From a candidate division WOR-3 bacterium (GTDB lineage: Bacteria > Hydrothermota > Tepidihabitantia > Tepidihabitantales > JBDRVQ01): 64,000 nt of DNA. Below the pieces are notes generated by a model, which saw only the letters and a list, made by a program, of their open reading frames with translations, made no database searches and had not been told where the DNA came from. The DNA lies in NCBI GenBank assembly GCA_039801905.1, contig JBDRVQ010000002.1, positions 3,147-67,146 on the forward strand, read 5' to 3'. The translations under genes were made by a program, and so were the position numbers. Positions 7,699 to 56,790 of the stretch are shown piece by piece. Position 1 is the stretch's first letter; every line of letters begins with the position of its first letter.

Positions 7699-7710
7699 CT
7701 TTAATTTTTA

Positions 7711-7738
7711 ATAATAATAAAATATTAGAGATAGTCAA
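7711..7738 (-). promoter_or_regulatory. Candidate proximal sigma70-type promoter for the gcv operon (TTGACT-16-TATTAT, 12 nt before the ATG)
   Basis: Minus-strand read: ccTTGACTatctctaatattttatTATTATtaaaaattaaagATG. The DNA is AT-rich, so a chance match is possible. Confidence 0.35.
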
Positions 7739-7959
7739 GGATTTTTATTGGCAATAGGAGAGAAATGGGTTTTAACCCCTTCCTCAATTATTCGCTTAAA
7801 GGGATATTGAGTTCAGATATACTTCTTTTTCTATAAGAGGCGAGTAAGATTCTCATTTATCTTTGGTGGATGGGTTTTATATTCCCTTTCGGTCCTTGGC
7901 AAGCTGGGGAGAGGTATTTCCGGAGGCAATTTCCCACATAATTTGAATATATCTCCAGT

Positions 7960-8234
7960 ATCCAGATTAGGCTCCCATTTTTACTTAGGATTAAAGCCTT
8001 AGTTAAACACAGGATTAAACTCTTTATTATCCCTTCTATTAAACTCTGAATTAGACTTCCAATTATGCCCTCTTTTAGAGTATCTATTAAATCCTCAATT
8101 AAACCCTTTATTAAATCTCCGATTAAGTCTAAAATTATACCTTTTCTTAGACCTTATATTATGCCTTTCATTAAATCCCTGATACCATCCCCTGTATGCT
8201 ACACCCCTTTTTATAAAAATAAACCCCTCCTGTT
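7960..8234 (-). repeat. Composite intergenic element, copy 1: ~50-bp conserved core (8181-8234) plus ~220-bp array of ~12-bp-phased YTAAT(T) repeats (7963-8180)
   Basis: Core GATACCATCCCCTGTATGCTACACCCCTTTTTATAAAAATAAACCCCTCCTGTT on plus is the reverse complement of the core seen at 24419-24471 and 56503-56553, and is identical in orientation to 41098-41152. The array has TAAT/ATTAA motifs every 11-13 bp. Confidence 0.85.
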
Positions 8235-8359
8235 TGATAAAGTTCCTATTATTTAATGACATTTTAAGTTAACTATTAATTACCCGATAATACCTCCTTA
8301 ATCTCTCTTCTGATATAAGGGTTGGGATTAGAACCCAATAACTTACCTTAATAACTTCT

Positions 8360-24348: not shown

Positions 24349-24377
24349 GTTGACATTTCCCAAAAATCACCTATAAT
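24349..24377 (+). promoter_or_regulatory. Consensus sigma70 promoter TTGACA-17-TATAAT, 41 bp upstream of repeat-element core copy 2
   Basis: gTTGACAtttcccaaaaatcaccTATAATat. Both hexamers are perfect with a 17-bp spacer. Confidence 0.6.
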
Positions 24378-24418
24378 ATAATAAAAAAGAAGAGCAAAAG
24401 AATTTGATTAAATCCGAA

Positions 24419-24728
24419 AAGGGAGGGGTTTATTTTTATAAAAAGGGGTGTAGCATACAGGGGATGGTATCGGAGACCTAATTTTTAGCCTAATTGGGGC
24501 TCTAATAAATACCTTAAACCTTCGCTTAATCCACCTATTAAATAAAGGTTTAATCACCATATAAAATGGGGGTTTAATCCCTATAATAATGGAAGGCTTA
24601 ATCCGAAACCTAATTCCCTACCTAATCCCAGTGCTAACCAAGAATCTAATTGAGTAAATAATCTTCCGCCTAATTCTATCTCTTATTAATAGATTAATCC
24701 AGAGAGTAAAAGAAAGAGTAAGTTGACT
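24419..24728 (+). repeat. Composite intergenic element, copy 2: core 24419-24471, TAAT array ~24472-24700, ending at a TTGACT -35 box (24723-24728)
   Basis: Core AGGGAGGGGTTTATTTTTATAAAAAGGGGTGTAGCATACAGGGGATGGTATC. The array has YTAAT every 11-13 bp. Confidence 0.85.
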
Positions 24729-39301: not shown

Positions 39302-40810
39302 CTATCCCAAGAGCCGCTGCAAAACAATCTCTTCTGTCTTCTTTTGGAGAGCCTCCGCTTGGGAGAGAAGTCTCTTTGCCCCCCGCTCTTTCTCTTCCCG
39401 ATATTCTTTATCCTTTATACCTAAGAGGTTAATGAGAACATTAAGGTAGGCCCCTTTCGCCGCGGAGAGGAGAAAATTGGCGCCGCAGCCGGCATCGGTG
39501 ATAGAATTTTTATTACATTTTTCCGCATTTACCTTTGCCAACTCCAAACCGTTCACCGCCTTCTCCAAGACCTCATAGGGAACGACCACCGCTCCCTTTA
39601 AAGCCTCTTCTATTGCCCGCTCCCTCTCCTCTTTCTTTTCTTTAGGGATTTTATAAGCATCCATCACCCGATTGAATGCTTCACTATCAAGATCAATGAG
39701 GTGATAGAATCGGGAAGAGAGGACTTCCAATTGCGAACGGAGATCCTTCATATCCTCTTCCACATTTTCGTAGCCTTTTTTCCCAATTGTTAAACTGGCG
39801 GTCATTACCAAAAGGGATGTGCCGATACAACCCACCAACGCCGAAGCGGCACCACCTCCTGGGGTTGGCGTTGCCGAAGCGAGTTCTGCTAAAAAGGAAG
39901 CAAGGCTCTTCGTTTGGGGTAAGCGATTTTCTAAAATCTGGTCAAACTTAAAACTGTCAAGTTGTAAATAATAAACCGCCGAATCCAATAAGGCAGCAAT
40001 CGGACAGAGCCCAACAATCTCCGACTCTTTAATCGTTACCCCATACCTTTCCGCCTCCCTCTTTACCGTTTCAAATACCCGATAGAGAGGCGTTGCCTGG
40101 TAATTGGTCATATTGATGGAAACCTGGACGCAATTCTTCTCCTTAATCTCAAAACCGAGTGCTTTAACATAACGGAAGCCACCATCCTTAAAGCGAATCG
40201 CCTTAGCAATCTTTTTAGCAATTGTTAGGTCCGTAGTATTTAAGTTGATATTATAGGCAATCAAAGGGAAGCGTGCCCCAACGACTGTTGCTCCGGCGGT
40301 GGGATGAACTTCTGGTTTTCCAAAATCCGGTACCCGGGCCGGGTCTTTTTTTATCTCCTCCCGCAGGGTTTCAAACTCACCCTTTCGGATATTTGCCAAA
40401 TCAACCCTCTCCGGACGGGTAGCCGCCTGTTCGTAAAGATAGACCGGGATTTTTAACTCATCGGCAATCCTCTTACCCAATCTTCTTGCTAATTCCACAC
40501 ATTCTTCCATTGTCACCCCGGAGATTGGTACAAAGGGAATAACATCAGTTGCCCCAATCCGCGGATGTTCACCCTGATGCTTATTTAAGTCAATCAATTC
40601 CGAGGCGGTTTTGGTTAAACGGAATGCCGCTTCTAAACAAGCCTCCGGCTCGCCGATAAAAGTAATCACTGCTCGGTTATGGTCAGAATTCATCTCCGTA
40701 TCCAAAAGAAAAATATCCGGAACCGAAAGGACCGCGGAAACAATCTCATCAATAACTTCTTTTCTCCTTCCTTCACTAACATTCGGCACACATTCCACAA
40801 TTTTTCGCAT
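39302..40810 (-). CDS. Bifunctional glutamate formimidoyltransferase / formiminotetrahydrofolate cyclodeaminase; likely leaderless start at 40810
   Basis: MRKIVECVPNVSEGRR (FTCD N-terminal signature) and a C-terminal cyclodeaminase domain (GGGAASALVGCIG..). The track's longer start at 40825 would overlap the predicted -10 box. Confidence 0.8.
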   Translation of the reverse strand: MRKIVECVPNVSEGRRKEVIDEIVSAVLSVPDIFLLDTEMNSDHNRAVITFIGEPEACLEAAFRLTKTASELIDLNKHQGEHPRIGATDVIPFVPISGVTMEECVELARRLGKRIADELKIPVYLYEQAATRPERVDLANIRKGEFETLREEIKKDPARVPDFGKPEVHPTAGATVVGARFPLIAYNINLNTTDLTIAKKIAKAIRFKDGGFRYVKALGFEIKEKNCVQVSINMTNYQATPLYRVFETVKREAERYGVTIKESEIVGLCPIAALLDSAVYYLQLDSFKFDQILENRLPQTKSLASFLAELASATPTPGGGAASALVGCIGTSLLVMTASLTIGKKGYENVEEDMKDLRSQLEVLSSRFYHLIDLDSEAFNRVMDAYKIPKEKKEERERAIEEALKGAVVVPYEVLEKAVNGLELAKVNAEKCNKNSITDAGCGANFLLSAAKGAYLNVLINLLGIKDKEYREEKERGAKRLLSQAEALQKKTEEIVLQRLLG

Positions 40811-40813
40811 GGG

Positions 40814-40843
40814 TAAATATACCAAACTCTAATCCCCTGTCAA
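40814..40843 (-). promoter_or_regulatory. Candidate promoter TTGACA-18-TATTTA, 3 nt upstream of the FTCD ATG, directly abutting the end of repeat-array copy 3
   Basis: Minus read: ..gagaaaagTTGACAggggattagagtttggtaTATTTAcccATGcgaaaaattgtggaatgt. Confidence 0.4.
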
Positions 40844-40859
40844 CTTTTCTCTCGGGGAG

Positions 40860-41152
40860 AAAGCACTTCGCTTTGCTCCGAGATTTCACTCCCGATTAGA
40901 CTTTTAATTAGTCTTCCAATTAAACCTCTCATTAGGCTCCTCATTACATCCCGGCTTAGACTTCCCTTTATTTCCCCGATTACCCTTTGCTTTACTCCCA
41001 AGGTTAAACTTGGGATTAGGCAAAAGATTAGGCTATTTATTAGACTAATTATTATTCTATCAATTATTCTTCTAATTAGTCCTCAAATTAAACCCCCGAT
41101 ACCATCCCCTGTATGCTACACCCCTTTTTATAAAAATAAAACCCTCCTGTTT
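40860..41152 (-). repeat. Composite intergenic element, copy 3: core 41098-41152 plus ATTAG/ATTAA array 40860-41097
   Basis: The core is identical in orientation and sequence to copy 1. The array has repeats every ~12 bp. Confidence 0.85.
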
Positions 41153-41214
41153 TTTCCTCCTTTTTCTTTTTGGTTCATTGCCCTACCCGATAACCCTCCT
41201 ATTATAGTGCTAAC

Positions 41215-41330
41215 TTATTCATATTCATAGCCCTCTATAATAAATACGGAAATACCCCCCAATTTCTGACACCAAATCTTCCCCTTTTCTCTAACCCTTT
41301 GATTTTTAAGAACTTATTTTTGGGATTTCT
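41215..41330. repeat. Second conserved module, copy matching 8360-8470
   Basis: The 47-mer CATAGCCCTCTATAATAAATACGGAAATACCCCCCAATTTCTGACAC is shared between the two loci. Confidence 0.7.
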
Positions 41331-41348
41331 AAATAATAATGCTCATGT

Positions 41349-41795
41349 TTAGTAGGTTGCCTTGTAATCAATTTTGATATTAACCTCGGTCACCTTCCCT
41401 TTTTCCACCCGAACCGGAAAGATAAAACCATCCCCGTCAAAAAGATTGGCATAGAAAAGTCCCCTTTCCCGAACAAAGAGGGAGTATTCTCCAGGAGGAA
41501 GGGCTAAGAAGAAGTAGCCATTCTGATCGGTAATTACCGAATCAATAAGCGGAGAGTTGATTTTGGTATAAAAGGTACTCTTCCCTTCCTCTTTAAGGCA
41601 ATTTAAAAGATTGACCTTCTTAAACACAAGAACGGTCTTTGGTTCGTAATAGATTCTCCCTTGAGAAGGAGGCATAAAATCTCCCTCCCAAATCTCTACC
41701 CTCCCTTTTATCCCTTCCTTAATTTCTCTTTTCACCCCTTTTCCCGCACAGCCTCCGAGGAGTAGGAGAAAAATAAGAAATAGTAATCGCATCAA
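41349..41795 (-). CDS. Lipoprotein with carboxypeptidase-regulatory-like (CarboxypepD_reg) beta-sandwich domain
   Basis: LLLGGC lipobox; ..ITDQNGYFFLALPPGEYSLFV. Confidence 0.5.
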   Translation of the reverse strand: MMRLLFLIFLLLLGGCAGKGVKREIKEGIKGRVEIWEGDFMPPSQGRIYYEPKTVLVFKKVNLLNCLKEEGKSTFYTKINSPLIDSVITDQNGYFFLALPPGEYSLFVRERGLFYANLFDGDGFIFPVRVEKGKVTEVNIKIDYKATY

Positions 41796-53588: not shown

Positions 53589-55928
53589 ATGGAAAATAGG
53601 GAGGTAGCAATGCTTAAATCTCTCTCTATATTTTTCTTATTTTTTCTTGCCTTCGGGGCAAAAGATATTAGTCTTCCGAGCGAACAACCAATAAATCTCC
53701 AAACGCCTGAGACCGACCAAATATCTATTCCCCTTCTCTTAAACTATCAAGGTAAAATTACCGATAATATAGGTAATCCCGTTCGGGACTCTTCCTATTC
53801 CGTAACCTTTCGCTTATTTAATGTCCCTTCGGGGGGAACTGCTTTCTGGAATGAAACCCAGACCATTCAGACCCGAGCCGGTCTCTTCCATACCCTTTTA
53901 GGTAGTGTCACGCCAATCCCTTCTTTACCCCTTGATGGCAACTTATATTTAGAGATGCAGGTCAATCCCAATCCGGCAATGACGCCAAGAGTTAGAATTG
54001 TGAGTTCCGCCTATTCTTATATCGCAAGAAAGTCGGATAGCACAAATTACTTAAATCAGATGGGTGCTTCTACGGGACAGGTCTTAAAATGGAACGGAAC
54101 AACCTGGGCGCCGGGAAACGATGAAGTTGGTGGTGATAATGCTTGGGTGAGAGGAACACCGGATTCGGTCCTTTACACAATAAGGCGATTGGGTATTGCC
54201 CGTGGCGGTTCTAATAATATGCTTTACGGTTCTTATCGGTATACCCATACTAACTTAGGGGTTAGTTGCACTACCGGAACATCAGGGCAGAATTATTATT
54301 ATTGCACGGTTGGCGGTGGGATAAGTAATAAGGCGAGCGGCAATTGGGCAACAGTTAGCGGTGGTGGTTATAATACAGCGAGTATGGCTCAATCAACGGT
54401 TGGGGGCGGTTATTTTAATACGGCAAGTGGTGATTATGCCGTGATTGGTGGTGGAGTGAGTAACCGAGCGAGTGGCTATTCTTCCAGCATTACAGGTGGT
54501 TATAATAATACCGCAACCGCCGACTACGCCACAGTGGCTGGTGGTTATTGCGACTCAGCAAAAGGTAAATATGCAGGTGCCCTTTCTGGCTATCACAATG
54601 TAGCAGGAAGTGCGCTTGGTGATAGTGGAGCGGTGGTCGCGGGTGGTTATAATAACAACGCGAGGAGCATCTATACATTTATTGGCGGCGGTAGAAATAA
54701 CGCCACACTCAATAGTGGAGCGACAGTGAGCGGGGGCATAGGTAATGTCGCAAGCGGTAATCTCGCTACAATTGGTGGTGGCCAAGAAAATTTCGCCAGT
54801 AACTATTACACAACGGTAAGCGGCGGCTTCGGTGATACCGCCACCGGGTATTTAGCAACAATTGCTGGCGGAAGAGGGAATATTGCGAGTGGCAATTACT
54901 CAACGGTTAGCGGTGGTGTTTGGAATCGGGCATTTGGTAATTACGCGACGGTTTCCGGTGGTGACCGGAATATAGCAAACGGTAACTACGTCACAATTGG
55001 CGGTGGCGGCGGAAATAGAGCCAGCGTCAATTATTCGACAGTGGGCGGCGGGTATGAGAACTTTGCCGATAGTTCCTATGCGACAATTGGGGGTGGAAAT
55101 CAAAATCTCGCGCCTCGGGTTTATGCCACAATTGGTGGCGGAAGTGAGAATTTTGCCAATGGTCCTTATGCGACGATTGGTGGCGGATGGAAAAATTGGG
55201 CAACTGGCGACCTTGCTACAATTGGCGGTGGCTACGGAAATATGGCGAGTATTGATTACGCAACAGTTGCTGGTGGATATTGTGATACTTCCGCCGGTCC
55301 ATCAAGTTTCACAACCAATTCCCACTCCGTAGTCTATTTTATTTATGGCAACTCCGCTGCCTTTAATGGCCAGGCCGCAACCGCCTCCAATCAACTTCGC
55401 TGCGGCACACTTTCCAAAGCCGGTGGAAGTTTTACCATTGACCATCCCCTTGATCCATATAATAAAATCCTGAACCACTACTTCATTGAAGGACCGGAGA
55501 TGCTCAATATCTATCGGGGCAGTGTTGTCCTTGATGCCTCAGGCAGAGCGGAGGTGAGACTGCCTGATTACTTCTCCGCCCTGAACCGAAATCCACACAT
55601 CCAGTTGACCGGTGTTGGCTCTTCTGATGTCTATGTTGCCGAAGATATTAAAGGCAACGTCTTTGTCATTGGCGGTAAGCCGAGAACAAAAGTCTACTGG
55701 CTTGTAACCGGTGAACGGCAGGATATCTCAGCCGAGGCAATAAGAAGGTTAATGCCCGTTGAACAACCAAAGATTGGTGAACTTAAAGGAAGGATGCTTG
55801 ATGACGACTTCCTTGTTGGCTGTATGGAGCAGTTGGAGCGAGAAGGAAAGGCAAGTGGCATTGATTTCCGAACCGCAGCAGGGAGAAACAGGTATCAAGA
55901 TACGAAAAGGAGGATGAAAGGTGAATAA
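53589..55928 (+). CDS. Secreted protein with ~20 tandem ~20-aa Gly-rich beta-roll repeats (YadA-head/tail-fibre-like, consensus N-Y-ATIGGG--N-A-G) and a C-terminal 'IDHPLDP' tail-fibre-like domain
   Basis: Signal peptide MLKSLSIFFLFFLAFG; repeat region aa ~230-560; C-terminus ..GGSFTIDHPLDPYNKILNHYFIEGPEMLNIYRG... I could not run a family search. Confidence 0.5.
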   Translation: MENREVAMLKSLSIFFLFFLAFGAKDISLPSEQPINLQTPETDQISIPLLLNYQGKITDNIGNPVRDSSYSVTFRLFNVPSGGTAFWNETQTIQTRAGLFHTLLGSVTPIPSLPLDGNLYLEMQVNPNPAMTPRVRIVSSAYSYIARKSDSTNYLNQMGASTGQVLKWNGTTWAPGNDEVGGDNAWVRGTPDSVLYTIRRLGIARGGSNNMLYGSYRYTHTNLGVSCTTGTSGQNYYYCTVGGGISNKASGNWATVSGGGYNTASMAQSTVGGGYFNTASGDYAVIGGGVSNRASGYSSSITGGYNNTATADYATVAGGYCDSAKGKYAGALSGYHNVAGSALGDSGAVVAGGYNNNARSIYTFIGGGRNNATLNSGATVSGGIGNVASGNLATIGGGQENFASNYYTTVSGGFGDTATGYLATIAGGRGNIASGNYSTVSGGVWNRAFGNYATVSGGDRNIANGNYVTIGGGGGNRASVNYSTVGGGYENFADSSYATIGGGNQNLAPRVYATIGGGSENFANGPYATIGGGWKNWATGDLATIGGGYGNMASIDYATVAGGYCDTSAGPSSFTTNSHSVVYFIYGNSAAFNGQAATASNQLRCGTLSKAGGSFTIDHPLDPYNKILNHYFIEGPEMLNIYRGSVVLDASGRAEVRLPDYFSALNRNPHIQLTGVGSSDVYVAEDIKGNVFVIGGKPRTKVYWLVTGERQDISAEAIRRLMPVEQPKIGELKGRMLDDDFLVGCMEQLEREGKASGIDFRTAAGRNRYQDTKRRMKGE

Positions 55929-56431: not shown

Positions 56432-56460
56432 TTGACAAATTATAAGTATTAGTTTATAAT
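56432..56460 (+). promoter_or_regulatory. Consensus sigma70 promoter TTGACA-17-TATAAT, 42 bp upstream of repeat-element core copy 4
   Basis: gTTGACAaattataagtattagttTATAATt. Confidence 0.6.
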
Positions 56461-56502
56461 TAGAGTAAACTAAAAAGCGGATAAGGATTGGTTTCCAAAA
56501 GA

Positions 56503-56790
56503 AGGGAGAGTTTATTTTTATAAAAAGGGGTGTAGCATACAGGGGATGGCATCCGGGGTCTAAATAGGGGTTTAATAAGAAGGATAATAGAAAGTCTAAT
56601 TAAGGGGATAATAGAGACTCTAATAGAAGATATAATATAATGGTTAATAGAGGTGGTAATTGGGTGGTTAATTGGGAGTCTAACCTAAGGTCTAATGATA
56701 ACCCTAATTGGAACAATAACCGAAGGTCTAATTGCGAGACTAATTGAGAAAATAACTGAGGGCTTAATAAAGTTAATCTCCGGATTGACT
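56503..56790 (+). repeat. Composite intergenic element, copy 4: core 56503-56553, TAAT array ~56554-56784, ending at TTGACT (56785-56790) of a TTGACT-16-TAGAAT proximal promoter
   Basis: Core GAAGGGAGAGTTTATTTTTATAAAAAGGGGTGTAGCATACAGGGGATGGCATC. The array has GKYYTAAT units. Confidence 0.85.

What the first reader, a model, noticed from the sequence alone, without database searches (positions are those of the whole stretch)
40808..41200. Copy 3 sits upstream of a leaderless formiminotransferase-cyclodeaminase gene; the array ends on the -35
Read on the minus strand, the array (41097 down to 40860) is followed at once by TTGACA (40843-40838), an 18-bp spacer, TATTTA, then 3 nt and ATG (40810) encoding MRKIVECVPN. 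The FTCD start in the ORF track (40825) would overlap the -10, so 40810 with a leaderless mRNA is more plausible. A candidate distal -10 TATAAT (minus strand, plus-strand coordinates 41191-41196) lies ~50 bp upstream of the core but lacks a good -35.
Basis: partly seen in the sequence, partly recalled or inferred. Interest (0 to 1): 0.6.

Follow-up and report, generated by a model that had tools for sequence, protein, structure and literature searches.

The report
Phased 12-bp DNA track, capsid-like proteins
The FTCD gene does start at a conserved leaderless promoter, which is ordinary for this bacterium; the repeat array beside it is a later insertion, a strictly 12-bp-phased TAA track that elsewhere in this lineage follows two genes resembling the coat proteins of archaeal filamentous viruses, which bind exactly 12 bp of DNA per dimer.

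Summary
**Promoter.** The sequence features are real, with two corrections.
- The -10 is TGgTATATT (40824-40816), 16 bp after TTGACA (40843-40838), not TATTTA after 18 bp.
- The distal TATAAT is at 41206-41201, not 41191-41196.

ATG 40810 is the FTCD start. It aligns with Met1 of rat FTCD. Orthologues keep TTGACA-16-TATATT-5/7 nt-ATG. Twelve of 22 promoter-linked genes in the window have the same leaderless layout.

**The array is not part of that promoter.** The closest syntenic relative has only 23 bp there. Copy 3 is therefore a roughly 480-bp lineage-specific insertion.

**What the element is.** It has a 51-bp conserved core followed by 17-19 units of exactly 12 bp. TAA is 96-100% invariant in the units and there are no indels. 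There are four copies in the window. I found no support for a coding or known-RNA reading.

In related WOR-3 genomes, including the assembly that holds copy 3, core and array follow two paralogous genes, A and B (about 120 aa each). Their predicted folds, and weak sequence matches for B, point to the major capsid proteins of Adnaviria viruses (SIRV2, AFV1). Those dimers cover exactly 12 bp of A-form DNA.

**Best reading (inferred, about 0.5):** the array is a DNA assembly track for an A/B filament. No bacterial homologue of this fold is mentioned in the ICTV profile I read.

The parts
40838..40843 (-). -35 hexamer TTGACA of the FTCD promoter
   Evidence: Conserved in the orthologous loci L200-L203.
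40816..40824 (-). Extended -10, TGgTATATT. It follows the -35 by a 16-bp spacer and lies 5 nt upstream of the A of ATG.
   Evidence: 11 of 12 consensus matches plus the TG. TATATT is identical in L200, L201 and L203.
39302..40810 (-). FTCD coding sequence (502 aa plus stop). The inferred leaderless start is the A at 40810.
   Evidence: Met1 of PDB 1tt9 aligns with this Met, E 5.6e-103; public gene calls give 502 aa with FTCD_N, FTCD and FTCD_C domains.
40893..41096 (-). Copy 3 array: 17 units of exactly 12 bp (RRRGYYTAATNR). TAA is present in 17 of 17 units and TAAT in 12 of 17.
40844..40892 (-). Degenerate tail of the insertion. It holds two decayed units (to 40869) and an imperfect inverted repeat, TCTCGG...CCGAGA (40883-40850).
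   Evidence: No terminator-like site was found here.
41097..41147 (-). Conserved core, GGAGGGTTTTATTTTTATAAAAAGGGGTGTAGCATACAGGGGATGGTATCG. It sits in a fixed register with the array.
   Evidence: About 38 nt are invariant in all copies. The array's TAA lies at anchor offset 29+12k in all four window copies.
41148..41348 (-). Left part of the insertion. It holds the 65-nt cassette 5' module (41288-41224), an 8-codon stub of gene A, a remnant of the gene B 3' end (about 41200-41183), and the stray TATAAT (41206-41201).
   Evidence: repeat D8; tblastn to the L002 ORFs.
41349..41792 (-). Upstream lipoprotein-like gene (147 aa), itself leaderless. It marks the left edge of the insertion site.
   Evidence: Its orthologue abuts the FTCD promoter in L200.
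7964..8230 (-). Copy 1: core (8230-8180) plus 18 units. It also carries the 65-nt module and a gene remnant, and lies upstream of gcvT-gcvH-gcvP.
24350..24700 (+). Copy 2: a perfect TTGACA-16-TATAAT promoter (24350-24377), core (24422-24472) and 19 units. It lies upstream of a leaderless isochorismatase-family gene.
56432..56770 (+). Copy 4: a perfect TTGACA-17-TATAAT promoter (56432-56460), core (56504-56554) and 18 units. It lies upstream of rpmF.

Best explanation
Two unrelated things abut in this region.

**1. The FTCD promoter.** FTCD is transcribed from an ancestral sigma-70-type promoter. The layout is TTGACA (40843-40838), a 16-bp spacer, TGgTATATT (40824-40816), then 5 nt to ATG 40810. 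The mRNA therefore starts at or within a base of the start codon. This leaderless layout is the commonest one in this genome. This part is close to shown; I put it at about 0.9.

**2. The insertion.** Everything between the lipoprotein gene's stop codon and that -35 (41348-40844) is a lineage-specific insertion of a 'solo' copy of a dispersed element.

- The element has a 51-bp conserved core followed by 17-19 units of exactly 12 bp. Each unit carries an invariant TAA, and the track is in a fixed register with the core.
- In its full form the element is: gene A, gene B, core, array.
- A and B are paralogous basic proteins of about 120 aa. They are predicted to have the fold of the major capsid proteins (MCPs) of archaeal filamentous viruses (realm Adnaviria).
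- In virions, dimers of those proteins wrap A-form double-stranded DNA with exactly 12 bp per dimer.

**Inferred mechanism.** A/B heterodimers made from the intact cassette elsewhere in the same genome nucleate at the core. They then polymerise along the track, one dimer per 12-bp unit, with the flexible TAA step setting the register. The result would be a short nucleoprotein solenoid of about 17-19 dimers. That is roughly one turn of an SFV1-like helix or two turns of an AFV1-like helix.

At copy 3 this particle would sit 25-50 bp upstream of the FTCD -35. It could insulate or modulate that promoter, but it is not needed to define it.

**Shown versus inferred.**
- Shown: the sequence anatomy, the insertion, the linkage of the array to genes A and B, and the fold similarity.
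- Inferred: DNA binding, the one-dimer-per-unit register, and any effect on FTCD expression.
For: **Promoter**
- Consensus scan: 11 of 12 matches plus TG.
- The N-terminus aligns with rat FTCD Met1. Public gene calls give 502 aa.
- The layout is conserved in L200-L205 and L215.
- Twelve of 22 promoter-linked ATGs in the window lie 5-7 nt after the -10.

**Insertion**
- None of 80 FTCD loci from metagenomes carries an array.
- L200 keeps the lipoprotein-FTCD synteny with a 23-nt gap between the stop codon and the -35.
- Copy 3 is nearly identical (0-2 substitutions in the flanks, none in core or array) in MAGs that share an identical FTCD protein.

**Array anatomy**
- TAA lies at offset 29+12k from the core anchor in all four window copies, with no indels.
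- Logo from 137 units: T 96%, A 99%, A 100%, then T 69%. All other positions carry at most about 0.5 bit.
- Only period 12 fits, and no such array appears in shuffles.
- There are 16-19 units in every copy, including the divergent families.

**Linkage to genes A and B**
- The order A, B, core, array is seen in L002, L280, L281 and L282.
- It is also seen in the divergent paralogous cassettes L283/L284 and L289.
- Copies 1 and 3 and L001 carry remnants of the cassette's 5' module and of the gene B 3' end.
- In L291 the genes and the array have decayed together.
- An intact A-B cassette (L280) lies in the same assembly as copy 3 (L287).

**Fold of A and B**
- Gene A, AlphaFold2 model, pLDDT 86. 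The top Foldseek hit in the PDB is the SIRV2 MCP, 3j9x: E 8.7e-3, probability 1.0, TM-score 0.70 over 122 columns. SSRV1, AFV1, SIFV and AFV6 MCPs follow. The SIRV coat C-terminal domain matches at rmsd 1.4 A over 75 columns.
- Gene B, pLDDT 79. The top PDB hits are the AFV1 and SIRV2 MCPs. The top hits among predicted viral structures include the TTV1, ARV1, SIRV and SSRV1 coat proteins, with rmsd 1.2-1.9 A.
- All 6 members of the B family hit Pfam Sulf_coat_C (best E 0.0086). Two also hit MCP_C, the filamentous archaeal virus coat family (E 0.0031).
- A profile of the B family searched against PDB sequences finds AFV1 ORF132 as its best hit.
- B aligns with SIRV2 MCP residues 52-90 at 31% identity.
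- A and B are paralogues: hhalign E 1e-5.
- Both are basic. The first 30 residues of B carry a net charge of +9.

**Literature**
- There are 12 bp of A-form DNA per MCP dimer in SIRV2 and AFV1 (PMC5517147) and in SFV1 (PMC6105669).
- Paired paralogous MCPs that form heterodimers are the rule outside the Rudiviridae (PMC12282232).
Against: - No binding data exist.
- Every similarity of A and B to the viral MCPs is below a formal significance threshold. Foldseek E-values range from 0.009 to about 6, and the Pfam scores are below the gathering cut-offs. Small helical bundles can match by chance.
- Viral MCPs bind DNA without sequence preference, so a sequence-phased track has no precedent for this fold.
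- Two independent solo loci (copies 2 and 4) keep a perfect consensus promoter that reads into the core. This holds in both genomes, although the flanking sequence has diverged. In cassettes the array lies downstream of A and B. The array is therefore probably always transcribed in one direction. An RNA or R-loop role explains that better than a pure DNA-binding role does.
- The period of 12 is also a multiple of 3. In one divergent cassette (L283) the array is an intact 69-codon ORF with a Shine-Dalgarno sequence and an ATG.
- I could not identify the cassette's own promoter.
Confidence: 0.5

Rival explanations
1. The core and array act as RNA. They would be transcribed from the consensus promoters upstream of copies 2 and 4, or by read-through from the A-B genes. 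Three forms are possible. One is an unstructured, periodic UAA platform that binds or titrates a protein. Another is an alternative long 5' leader for the downstream gene. The third is an R-loop, whose RNA:DNA hybrid is A-form-like and could be what A and B bind.
For: - There are perfect 12-of-12 promoters 45-55 nt upstream of the core in copies 2 and 4. They are retained in the orthologous loci L004 and L003 although the flanks have diverged. They account for two of only five perfect promoters in the window.
- The array always points the same way as the transcription entering it.
- No terminator-like site separates the array from the next gene.
- The copy 4 array folds worse than its shuffles, z = +2.06, as expected for a single-stranded platform.
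- The core carries four G-runs on the non-template strand, and most arrays are purine-rich on that strand, 0.61-0.64.
Against: - No Rfam family matches, even at E up to 1.
- There is no conserved fold and no covariation in the core. The one candidate hairpin breaks in L001 without a compensating change.
- The purine bias is not universal: copy 2 is 0.46 and L289 is 0.53.
- The fold predicted for the linked proteins is known to bind double-stranded DNA, not single-stranded RNA.
- Copies 1 and 3 lack a recognisable sigma-70 promoter upstream of the core.
Confidence: 0.2
2. The array is, or recently was, a protein-coding gene. It would be a third gene of the cassette, encoding a small repetitive protein, (x-L/I/V-I/M-x)n. 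The solo copies would then be pseudogenes.
For: - In L283 the array is an intact 69-codon ORF with GGGGG, a 4-nt spacer and an ATG, and it was called as a gene.
- The same 'LI' frame is open across the whole array in L002 and L001, and it is open after one early stop in copies 1 and 3.
- The period of 12 nt equals 4 codons.
- A few changes at the core-array junction are synonymous in this frame: GGT/GGC and AGG/CGG.
Against: - The window family has no start codon in this frame, and a TAG lies directly upstream. There are 1-2 in-frame stops in each of copies 1-4.
- The open frame follows automatically from the RRR-RGY-YTA-ATN consensus.
- TAA is far more conserved than the encoded residues. Leu is always NTA, whereas the FTCD coding sequence shows other Leu codons such as CTT and TTG.
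- In L289 the second residue of the repeat is T, I, R, V, K or S.
- Substitutions between homologous arrays show no 3-nt periodicity.
- The L283 peptide has no homologue among 5.8 billion protein clusters.
Confidence: 0.07
3. The element is a selfish or hitch-hiking repeat with no function at the FTCD locus. It spreads by duplication or recombination into intergenic DNA, and its position next to the -35 is incidental.
For: - Copy 3 is an insertion that the closest relatives lack.
- The same A-B cassette has different flanks in different MAGs.
- Three of the four loci in the JBDRVU MAG lie at contig ends, as multi-copy repeats tend to.
- Decayed copies exist.
- The promoter works equally well on paper without the element.
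Against: - Paralogous arrays share almost nothing except the TAA, the 12-bp phase and the unit count. That pattern implies long-term purifying selection on those features rather than recent copying.
- The core is invariant over about 38 nt in copies whose arrays have diverged completely.
- No transposase, integrase, terminal inverted repeat or target-site duplication was found.
- This reading is compatible with the main explanation, because the element could be both mobile and functional.
Confidence: 0.15
4. The array is a run of in-frame stop codons. A five-codon mini-ORF in the core, ATG GTA TCG GGG GTT TAA, sets a frame in which UAA(U) recurs every fourth codon. This would act on terminating ribosomes or on release factors.
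For: - The ATG at anchor offset 14 is in frame with every TAA in all window copies.
- TAA is the most conserved triplet, and T is the preferred next base. From my own knowledge, UAAU is a strong termination context.
- The variable third base of the Ser codon (TCG, TCA, TCC) is synonymous.
Against: - The ATG is absent in the L289 family, where GCA occupies that position.
- The G-run directly abuts the ATG, which leaves no spacer for a Shine-Dalgarno interaction.
- TAG replaces TAA only once, in L003 outside the 137-unit set, and TGA never.
- One stop codon would be enough, so 18 have no rationale.
Confidence: 0.03

Closest known systems
Nucleocapsids of Adnaviria (SIRV2, AFV1, SFV1): dimers of the major capsid protein wrapping A-form double-stranded DNA
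   Same: - There are two adjacent paralogous genes for small basic alpha-helical proteins (122 and 111 aa here; the two AFV1 MCPs are named ORF132 and ORF140).
- The predicted fold matches over the full length (TM-score 0.70 to 3j9x). The C-terminal bundle matches at rmsd 1.2-1.4 A.
- Weak Pfam and HMM matches point to the same family.
- The DNA step per dimer in virions, 12 bp, equals the period of the array.
   Different: - These genes are chromosomal, in a bacterium (candidate division WOR-3), with no other viral genes nearby. In the ICTV profile I read, the fold is described only in archaeal viruses.
- Viral MCPs coat a whole 17.6-41.5-kb genome without a known sequence register. Here the presumed substrate is a dispersed track of about 210 bp with a sequence-encoded phase and a conserved core at one end.
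- Sequence similarity is below the family thresholds.
Iteron centromeres of type II and type III plasmid partition systems, such as R1 parC bound by ParR and tubC bound by TubR (from my own knowledge, not tested here)
   Same: These are arrays of about 10-12-bp direct repeats in strict register. A small DNA-binding protein coats them as a helical filament. They lie next to or overlap a promoter and are encoded beside the binding protein's gene.
   Different: - No partition NTPase (ParM, TubZ or ParA) is present.
- There are many chromosomal copies rather than one per replicon.
- The repeat units share only TAA rather than a full iteron.
- The predicted protein fold is neither ribbon-helix-helix nor winged helix.
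Leaderless mRNA promoters (from my own knowledge, described for example in Actinobacteria and Deinococcus-Thermus)
   Same: The -10 hexamer lies 5-7 nt upstream of the ATG, and there is no Shine-Dalgarno sequence. The arrangement is widespread within one genome.
   Different: Nothing unusual. The only addition is that this WOR-3 lineage uses the layout for about half of its promoter-linked genes in this window.
Protein-sponging RNAs with repeated short motifs, such as CsrB/RsmZ (a rival model; from my own knowledge)
   Same: Many copies of a short motif sit in a transcript driven by a strong promoter. The core contains AUACAGGGGAUGGU, which resembles the CsrA SELEX consensus RUACARGGAUGU.
   Different: - The spacing is rigid at 12 nt with no indels, whereas sponge RNAs have variable spacing and place their motifs in hairpin loops.
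- There is no Rfam match and no conserved structure.

Membership tests
Sigma-70-type leaderless promoter (FTCD) | -35 and -10 hexamers close to consensus, with a 16-18-bp spacer | tested here: met
   TTGACA-16-TATATT with an upstream TG, 11 of 12 matches.
Sigma-70-type leaderless promoter (FTCD) | The start codon lies at the expected transcription start (about 5-8 nt after the -10), with no Shine-Dalgarno sequence | tested here: met
   There are 5 nt between the -10 and the A of ATG. No GGAGG is present. The same geometry occurs at 12 genes in the window.
Sigma-70-type leaderless promoter (FTCD) | The true N-terminus is at that ATG | tested here: met
   Met1 of rat FTCD aligns with it. Orthologues begin M(R/P)KIVECVPN.
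Sigma-70-type leaderless promoter (FTCD) | An experimentally mapped 5' end at the start codon | not testable with these tools
   No transcriptome data were available.
Adnaviria SIRV2-like major capsid protein (Pfam PF12193 Sulf_coat_C, PF21660 MCP_C) | Sequence match above the family's gathering threshold | tested here: not met
   All 6 members of the B family hit PF12193 (best E 0.0086), and 2 of 6 hit PF21660 (E 0.0031). The one member tabulated scores 13.1 bits against a cut-off of 25.2, so the matches fall below gathering. The A family has no hit.
Adnaviria SIRV2-like major capsid protein (Pfam PF12193 Sulf_coat_C, PF21660 MCP_C) | A long N-terminal helix followed by a C-terminal four-helix bundle | tested here: met
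   AlphaFold2 models have pLDDT 86 (A) and 79 (B). The top Foldseek hits for both are Adnaviria MCPs: TM-score 0.70 to 3j9x, and rmsd 1.2-1.4 A to the SIRV coat C-terminal domain. These are predicted structures, and the E-values are weak.
Adnaviria SIRV2-like major capsid protein (Pfam PF12193 Sulf_coat_C, PF21660 MCP_C) | A dimer (a heterodimer of paralogues outside the Rudiviridae) as the building block | tested here: inconclusive
   A and B are adjacent, overlap by ATGA, and are paralogous (hhalign E 1e-5). Dimer formation was not modelled.
Adnaviria SIRV2-like major capsid protein (Pfam PF12193 Sulf_coat_C, PF21660 MCP_C) | Wraps double-stranded DNA in the A-form with 12 bp per dimer | not testable with these tools
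   The only evidence is indirect: the linked array has an exact 12-bp period, against 12 bp per dimer in the literature.
Adnaviria SIRV2-like major capsid protein (Pfam PF12193 Sulf_coat_C, PF21660 MCP_C) | Encoded by a virus with a linear genome and terminal inverted repeats | tested here: not met
   The cassettes sit among housekeeping genes, and no other viral genes were called nearby.
Known RNA family (Rfam 15) | A covariance-model match | tested here: not met
   There are 0 matches at gathering threshold in the window, and none at E up to 1 over copies 1 and 3 apart from one chance sRNA hit elsewhere.
Protein-coding gene (array as an ORF) | A start codon, an uninterrupted frame, and substitutions with codon-position bias | tested here: not met
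   There is no start codon, and copies 1-4 carry in-frame stops. Substitutions show no 3-nt periodicity. No protein homologues were found. The exception is the intact ORF in L283.
Partition centromere (parC or tubC iteron array) | A linked partition NTPase and one locus per replicon | tested here: not met
   No NTPase lies in any cassette. There are four arrays in 64 kb.
Transposable element or MITE | A transposase or terminal inverted repeats with a target-site duplication | tested here: not met
   None was seen at the copy 3 junctions when compared with the empty site in L200. A and B have no transposase-like Pfam hits.

The most novel reading that the evidence does not exclude
This bacterial lineage (candidate division WOR-3) carries cellular homologues of the Adnaviria major capsid protein. 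In the ICTV profile I read, that fold is described only in archaeal filamentous viruses and no cellular relative is mentioned. The bacterium would use an A/B heterodimer as a sequence-positioned chromatin particle. The dimers would assemble on dispersed tracks of about 210 bp whose exact 12-bp TAA phase encodes one dimer per unit. They would convert the DNA, or a transcription-dependent RNA:DNA hybrid, to A-form immediately upstream of promoters. This would provide both a candidate cellular relative or ancestor of a viral realm's hallmark protein and the first sequence-encoded assembly signal for it.
Probability: 0.4. Interest if true: 0.9.

Novelty: categorically new. Interest (0 to 1): 0.8.

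Why it matters
The promoter result is routine annotation. It fixes the FTCD start codon and shows that leaderless initiation is the usual mode in this WOR-3 lineage.

The element matters for three reasons if the inference holds.

1. **Virus origins.** The ICTV profile I read describes the hallmark capsid fold of the realm Adnaviria only in archaeal viruses and mentions no cellular relative. A chromosomal bacterial gene pair with this fold bears directly on where that realm's capsid protein came from.
2. **A testable assembly rule.** The exact match between the 12-bp period of the array and the 12-bp footprint of the viral capsomer predicts one dimer per TAA-marked unit. A single footprinting or cryo-EM experiment on a 300-bp fragment could check this.
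3. **A new kind of bacterial DNA organisation.** It would be short, sequence-positioned A-form nucleoprotein particles placed beside promoters.

It also has a practical side. These arrays break MAG assemblies and generate spurious ORF calls on both strands.

Tried and rejected
- **Known RNA families.** Rfam gave nothing at gathering threshold or at E up to 1.
- **RNA structure.** Single-sequence folds of eight cores are inconsistent. Array fold z-scores are -1.4 and +2.06. The one candidate hairpin is not supported by covariation.
- **G-quadruplex in the core.** I rejected this because the G-runs are not conserved in copies 2 and 4.
- **Coding on either strand.** Both the forward 'LI' frame and the reverse 'IK' frame are mostly open. 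Both have stops, lack start codons, and are explained by the consensus.
- **Stop-codon array or mini-ORF.** The ATG is not conserved in L289.
- **Wider distribution.**
  - The exact core 21-mer occurs only in one WOR-3 MAG in genome contigs, and nowhere in the metagenome contigs.
  - Periodic TAAT and TAAY patterns in viral contigs were swamped by ordinary satellites, so I did not use them on the metagenomes.
- **Homologues of the L283 array ORF.** None were found.
- **Families for genes A and B.** PHROGs gave nothing useful.
- **The cassette's own promoter.** I could not assign a sigma-70 or sigma-54 promoter from the conserved 65-nt module. An ECF-like TGTCAG-N17-CGTA is only a guess.
- **Glycine riboswitch between copy 1 and gcvT.** There is no Rfam signal.
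- **Look-ups that returned nothing.** P0003, P0015 and P0018 are not on record.


Full report
**1. What is in the sequence**

All of the following reads on the minus strand.

- The conserved core GGAGGGTTTTATTTTTATAAAAAGGGGTGTAGCATACAGGGGATGGTATCG occupies 41147-41097.
- Seventeen units of exactly 12 nt follow (41096-40893). Every unit carries TAA at unit positions 7-9.
- Two decayed units and an imperfect inverted repeat fill 40892-40844.
- TTGACA lies at 40843-40838.
- ATG lies at 40810 and opens MRKIVECVPN.

The consensus scan reports TTGACA-16-TATATT (40821-40816) with an upstream TG, 11 of 12 matches. That leaves 5 nt before the A of the ATG.

**2. The FTCD start and promoter**

- The ORF-track start (TTG 40825) adds five residues, MVYLP. 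Met1 of rat FTCD (PDB 1tt9) aligns with the next residue, the Met encoded at 40810 (E 5.6e-103).
- Public gene calls on contigs carrying the identical protein give 502 aa.
- I fetched 80 FTCD loci from metagenomes.
  - The closest ones, at 80-86% protein identity, read TTGACA-16-TATATT followed by 5 or 7 nt and ATG. Their spacers differ in sequence.
  - Those at 72-73% identity read TTGATT (TTGAAT in L205), a 15-bp spacer by my own count, TATCAT, then 6 nt to the ATG.
  - More distant homologues have AAGGAG 6-8 nt upstream of the ATG instead.
- Within the window, 12 of 22 ATGs that open ORFs of at least 100 aa and have a good upstream promoter lie 5-7 nt after the -10. Both neighbours of copy 3 are among them.

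Leaderless FTCD is therefore well supported, and it is ordinary for this organism.

**3. The array is an insertion, not part of the promoter**

- None of the 80 FTCD loci contains a TAA-phased array.
- L200 is the closest relative and keeps the same upstream lipoprotein gene. There, the stop codon is separated from TTGACA by 23 nt. In the window the same interval is 505 nt (41348-40844).
- Copy 3 is nearly identical in MAGs that share an identical FTCD protein. Two of them differ by one or two bases in the flanks, and none differs in the core or array.
- The offset from the core anchor to the next gene's -35 is 273, 276 and 253 nt in copies 2, 3 and 4. These share no common phase.
- In L280 and L282 the array is followed by a convergent gene rather than a promoter.

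The juxtaposition with the -35 therefore reflects insertion into a very short intergenic region.

**4. The element family**

- The window holds exactly four copies. Their anchors are at 8202(-), 24450(+), 41119(-) and 56532(+), and each has 17-19 units. No such array appears in 50 shuffles, and no period other than 12 fits.
- TAA lies at offset 29+12k from the core anchor in all four copies, without a single indel.
- A logo from 137 units gives T 96%, A 99%, A 100%, then T 69%. The consensus is RRRGYYTAATNR, and all other positions are weak.
- Paralogous arrays share essentially nothing else.
- Copies 2 and 4 have perfect TTGACA-16/17-TATAAT promoters 45-55 nt upstream of the core.
- Copies 1 and 3 instead carry a shared 65-nt module and short gene remnants.
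- The core 21-mer occurs elsewhere only in a candidate division WOR-3 MAG. Three of its four loci there lie at contig ends.

**5. Full-length form**

- In L002, L280, L281 and L282 the core and array lie 60-100 nt downstream of two genes that overlap by ATGA. Gene A is 122 aa and gene B is 111 aa. The 65-nt module precedes them.
- More divergent cassettes have the same layout, with 16-18 units. These are L283/L284, where B is 50% identical, and L289.
- In L289 only GTYTAA is conserved, and the base after TAA varies freely.
- L289 comes from the same assembly as FTCD locus L201, which has no array. The family is therefore older than the copy 3 insertion.
- L291 shows truncated A and B genes together with a partly decayed array. 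Its MAGs also carry copy 3.
- An intact cassette (L280) lies in the same assembly as copy 3 (L287).
- Both protein families are tiny and were found almost only in WOR-3.

**6. What A and B are**

- AlphaFold2 models are confident, with pLDDT 86 for A and 79 for B.
- For A, the best PDB match is the SIRV2 major capsid protein, 3j9x: E 8.7e-3, probability 1.0, TM-score 0.70 over 122 columns. The MCPs of SSRV1, AFV1, SIFV and AFV6 follow.
- For B, the best PDB matches are the AFV1 and SIRV2 MCPs. The best matches among predicted viral structures include the coat proteins of TTV1, ARV1, SIRV and SSRV1, at rmsd 1.2-1.9 A over about 75 columns.
- At the sequence level:
  - All six B-family members hit Pfam Sulf_coat_C, and two hit MCP_C. 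The scores are below the gathering thresholds.
  - The best PDB sequence hit of the B profile is AFV1 ORF132.
  - hhalign places B on SIRV2 MCP residues 52-90 at 31% identity.
- A and B are paralogues and both are basic. The first 30 residues of B carry a net charge of +9.
- No single one of these scores is significant on its own. Their agreement on one small family, from two paralogues and four methods, is what carries weight.

**7. The 12-bp coincidence**

- Cryo-EM studies report that the asymmetric unit of these virions is an MCP dimer plus 12 bp of A-form DNA. This holds for SIRV2 and AFV1 (PMC5517147) and for SFV1 (PMC6105669).
- There are 9.3, 14.7 and 17.14 units per helical turn in AFV1, SIRV2 and SFV1.
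- Outside the Rudiviridae the dimer is a heterodimer of two paralogous MCPs (PMC12282232).
- The array next to A and B has a period of exactly 12 bp and 16-19 units.

My inference is that the array is a DNA track on which A/B heterodimers assemble one per unit. Assembly would nucleate at the core, with the flexible TAA step setting the register. Solo tracks would be bound in trans.

**8. Rivals**

- **A role as RNA or an R-loop is the strongest rival.** The solo arrays keep consensus promoters that read into them, and the arrays always point with transcription. Against it, there is no Rfam match, no conserved fold and no universal purine bias.
- **Coding is unlikely.** There are no start codons in the window family, there are in-frame stops, and the open frames follow trivially from the consensus. 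TAA is more conserved than any encoded residue. Substitutions show no codon-position pattern, and there are no protein homologues. One divergent copy is an intact ORF.
- **A stop-codon array is unlikely.** It fails because the core ATG is not conserved.
- **Selfish spread** is compatible with any of these.

**9. Verdict**

The array is not part of the promoter.

What is there is a solo copy of a previously undescribed element. Its full form pairs Adnaviria-MCP-like genes with a 12-bp-phased DNA track. The ICTV profile describes this fold only in archaeal viruses, and my literature searches found no description of such an element. The mechanism is inferred, not shown.

Noticed in passing
L071 1-1750 (IMGVR_UViG_3300028569_000044): A viral contig carries about ten tandem units, each a 12-nt-period TAATTG array with variable 6-nt spacers. 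On the reverse strand each unit reads ATGAAYTTCACAAAACCAATAAAA followed by (CAATTAnnnnnn)n. That is a series of small ORFs, MNFTKPIK...(QLxx)n. It is another case of an invariant hexamer at an exact 12-nt period, here probably coding.
   Followed up: partly
window, whole; for example 10578, 18459, 33900, 36998, 41850, 47045 and 53552 (+); 60801, 53508, 41826 and 32253 (-): Leaderless gene starts are pervasive. Twelve of 22 promoter-linked ATGs lie 5-7 nt after a -10 hexamer. ORF tracks that extend to the first upstream TTG or GTG will often over-call N-termini in this genome.
   Followed up: yes
L280, L281 and L282: The identical gene B protein (P0002) has different neighbours in three MAGs. 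L280 and L282 share their downstream genes, L281 and L282 share their upstream genes, and L281 has the HU gene downstream, as L002 does. Either the cassettes are recombination breakpoints or the repeats cause chimeric assemblies.
   Followed up: no
L001 about 320-240, L002 about 4915-4860, L003 about 1965-2050: A separate REP-like repeat, TTAAGTCGCTCGCCTTTGGCGAAGTCTCGCC...GGCGGATAAGAC, with two short GC-rich hairpins lies between gene B (or its remnant) and the core in some copies (L001, L002). In L003 it lies upstream of the consensus promoter. Copies 1-4 in the window lack it.
   Followed up: no
window 8336-8319; L001, L280, L289 and L291 upstream of gene A: A conserved small hairpin, GGGTTCTAATCCCAACCC, lies between the 65-nt module and the gene A ribosome-binding site. 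It is retained in the copy 1 remnant.
   Followed up: no
window 8065-8256 (+) and 40840-41001 (-): ORFs of 63 and 53 aa lie inside arrays, one on each strand. The periodic consensus generates them, and they are almost certainly spurious.
   Followed up: yes
window 54310-55286 (+): A coding repeat with a 45-nt period (nine or more copies) lies in a 779-aa ORF. A gene with a Por_Secre_tail domain follows it. This looks like a repetitive secreted or surface protein.
   Followed up: no
window 7700-7960 (-): About 270 nt of unassigned sequence lie between the end of the copy 1 array and gcvT. The gcvT promoter (TTGACT-16-TATTAT) ends 12 nt before the ATG. No glycine riboswitch or other Rfam family was detected.
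   Followed up: partly
L291 2300-3110: A decayed cassette occurs in MAGs that also carry copy 3. Gene A is reduced to 48 aa and gene B to 84 aa. Several array units have lost their TAA, which suggests that the genes and the adjacent track decay together.
   Followed up: partly
L001, L003 and L004 (JBDRVU MAG): Three of the four core matches in this MAG lie within about 1 kb of a contig end. The element probably breaks short-read assemblies, so copy numbers in MAGs are underestimates.
   Followed up: no
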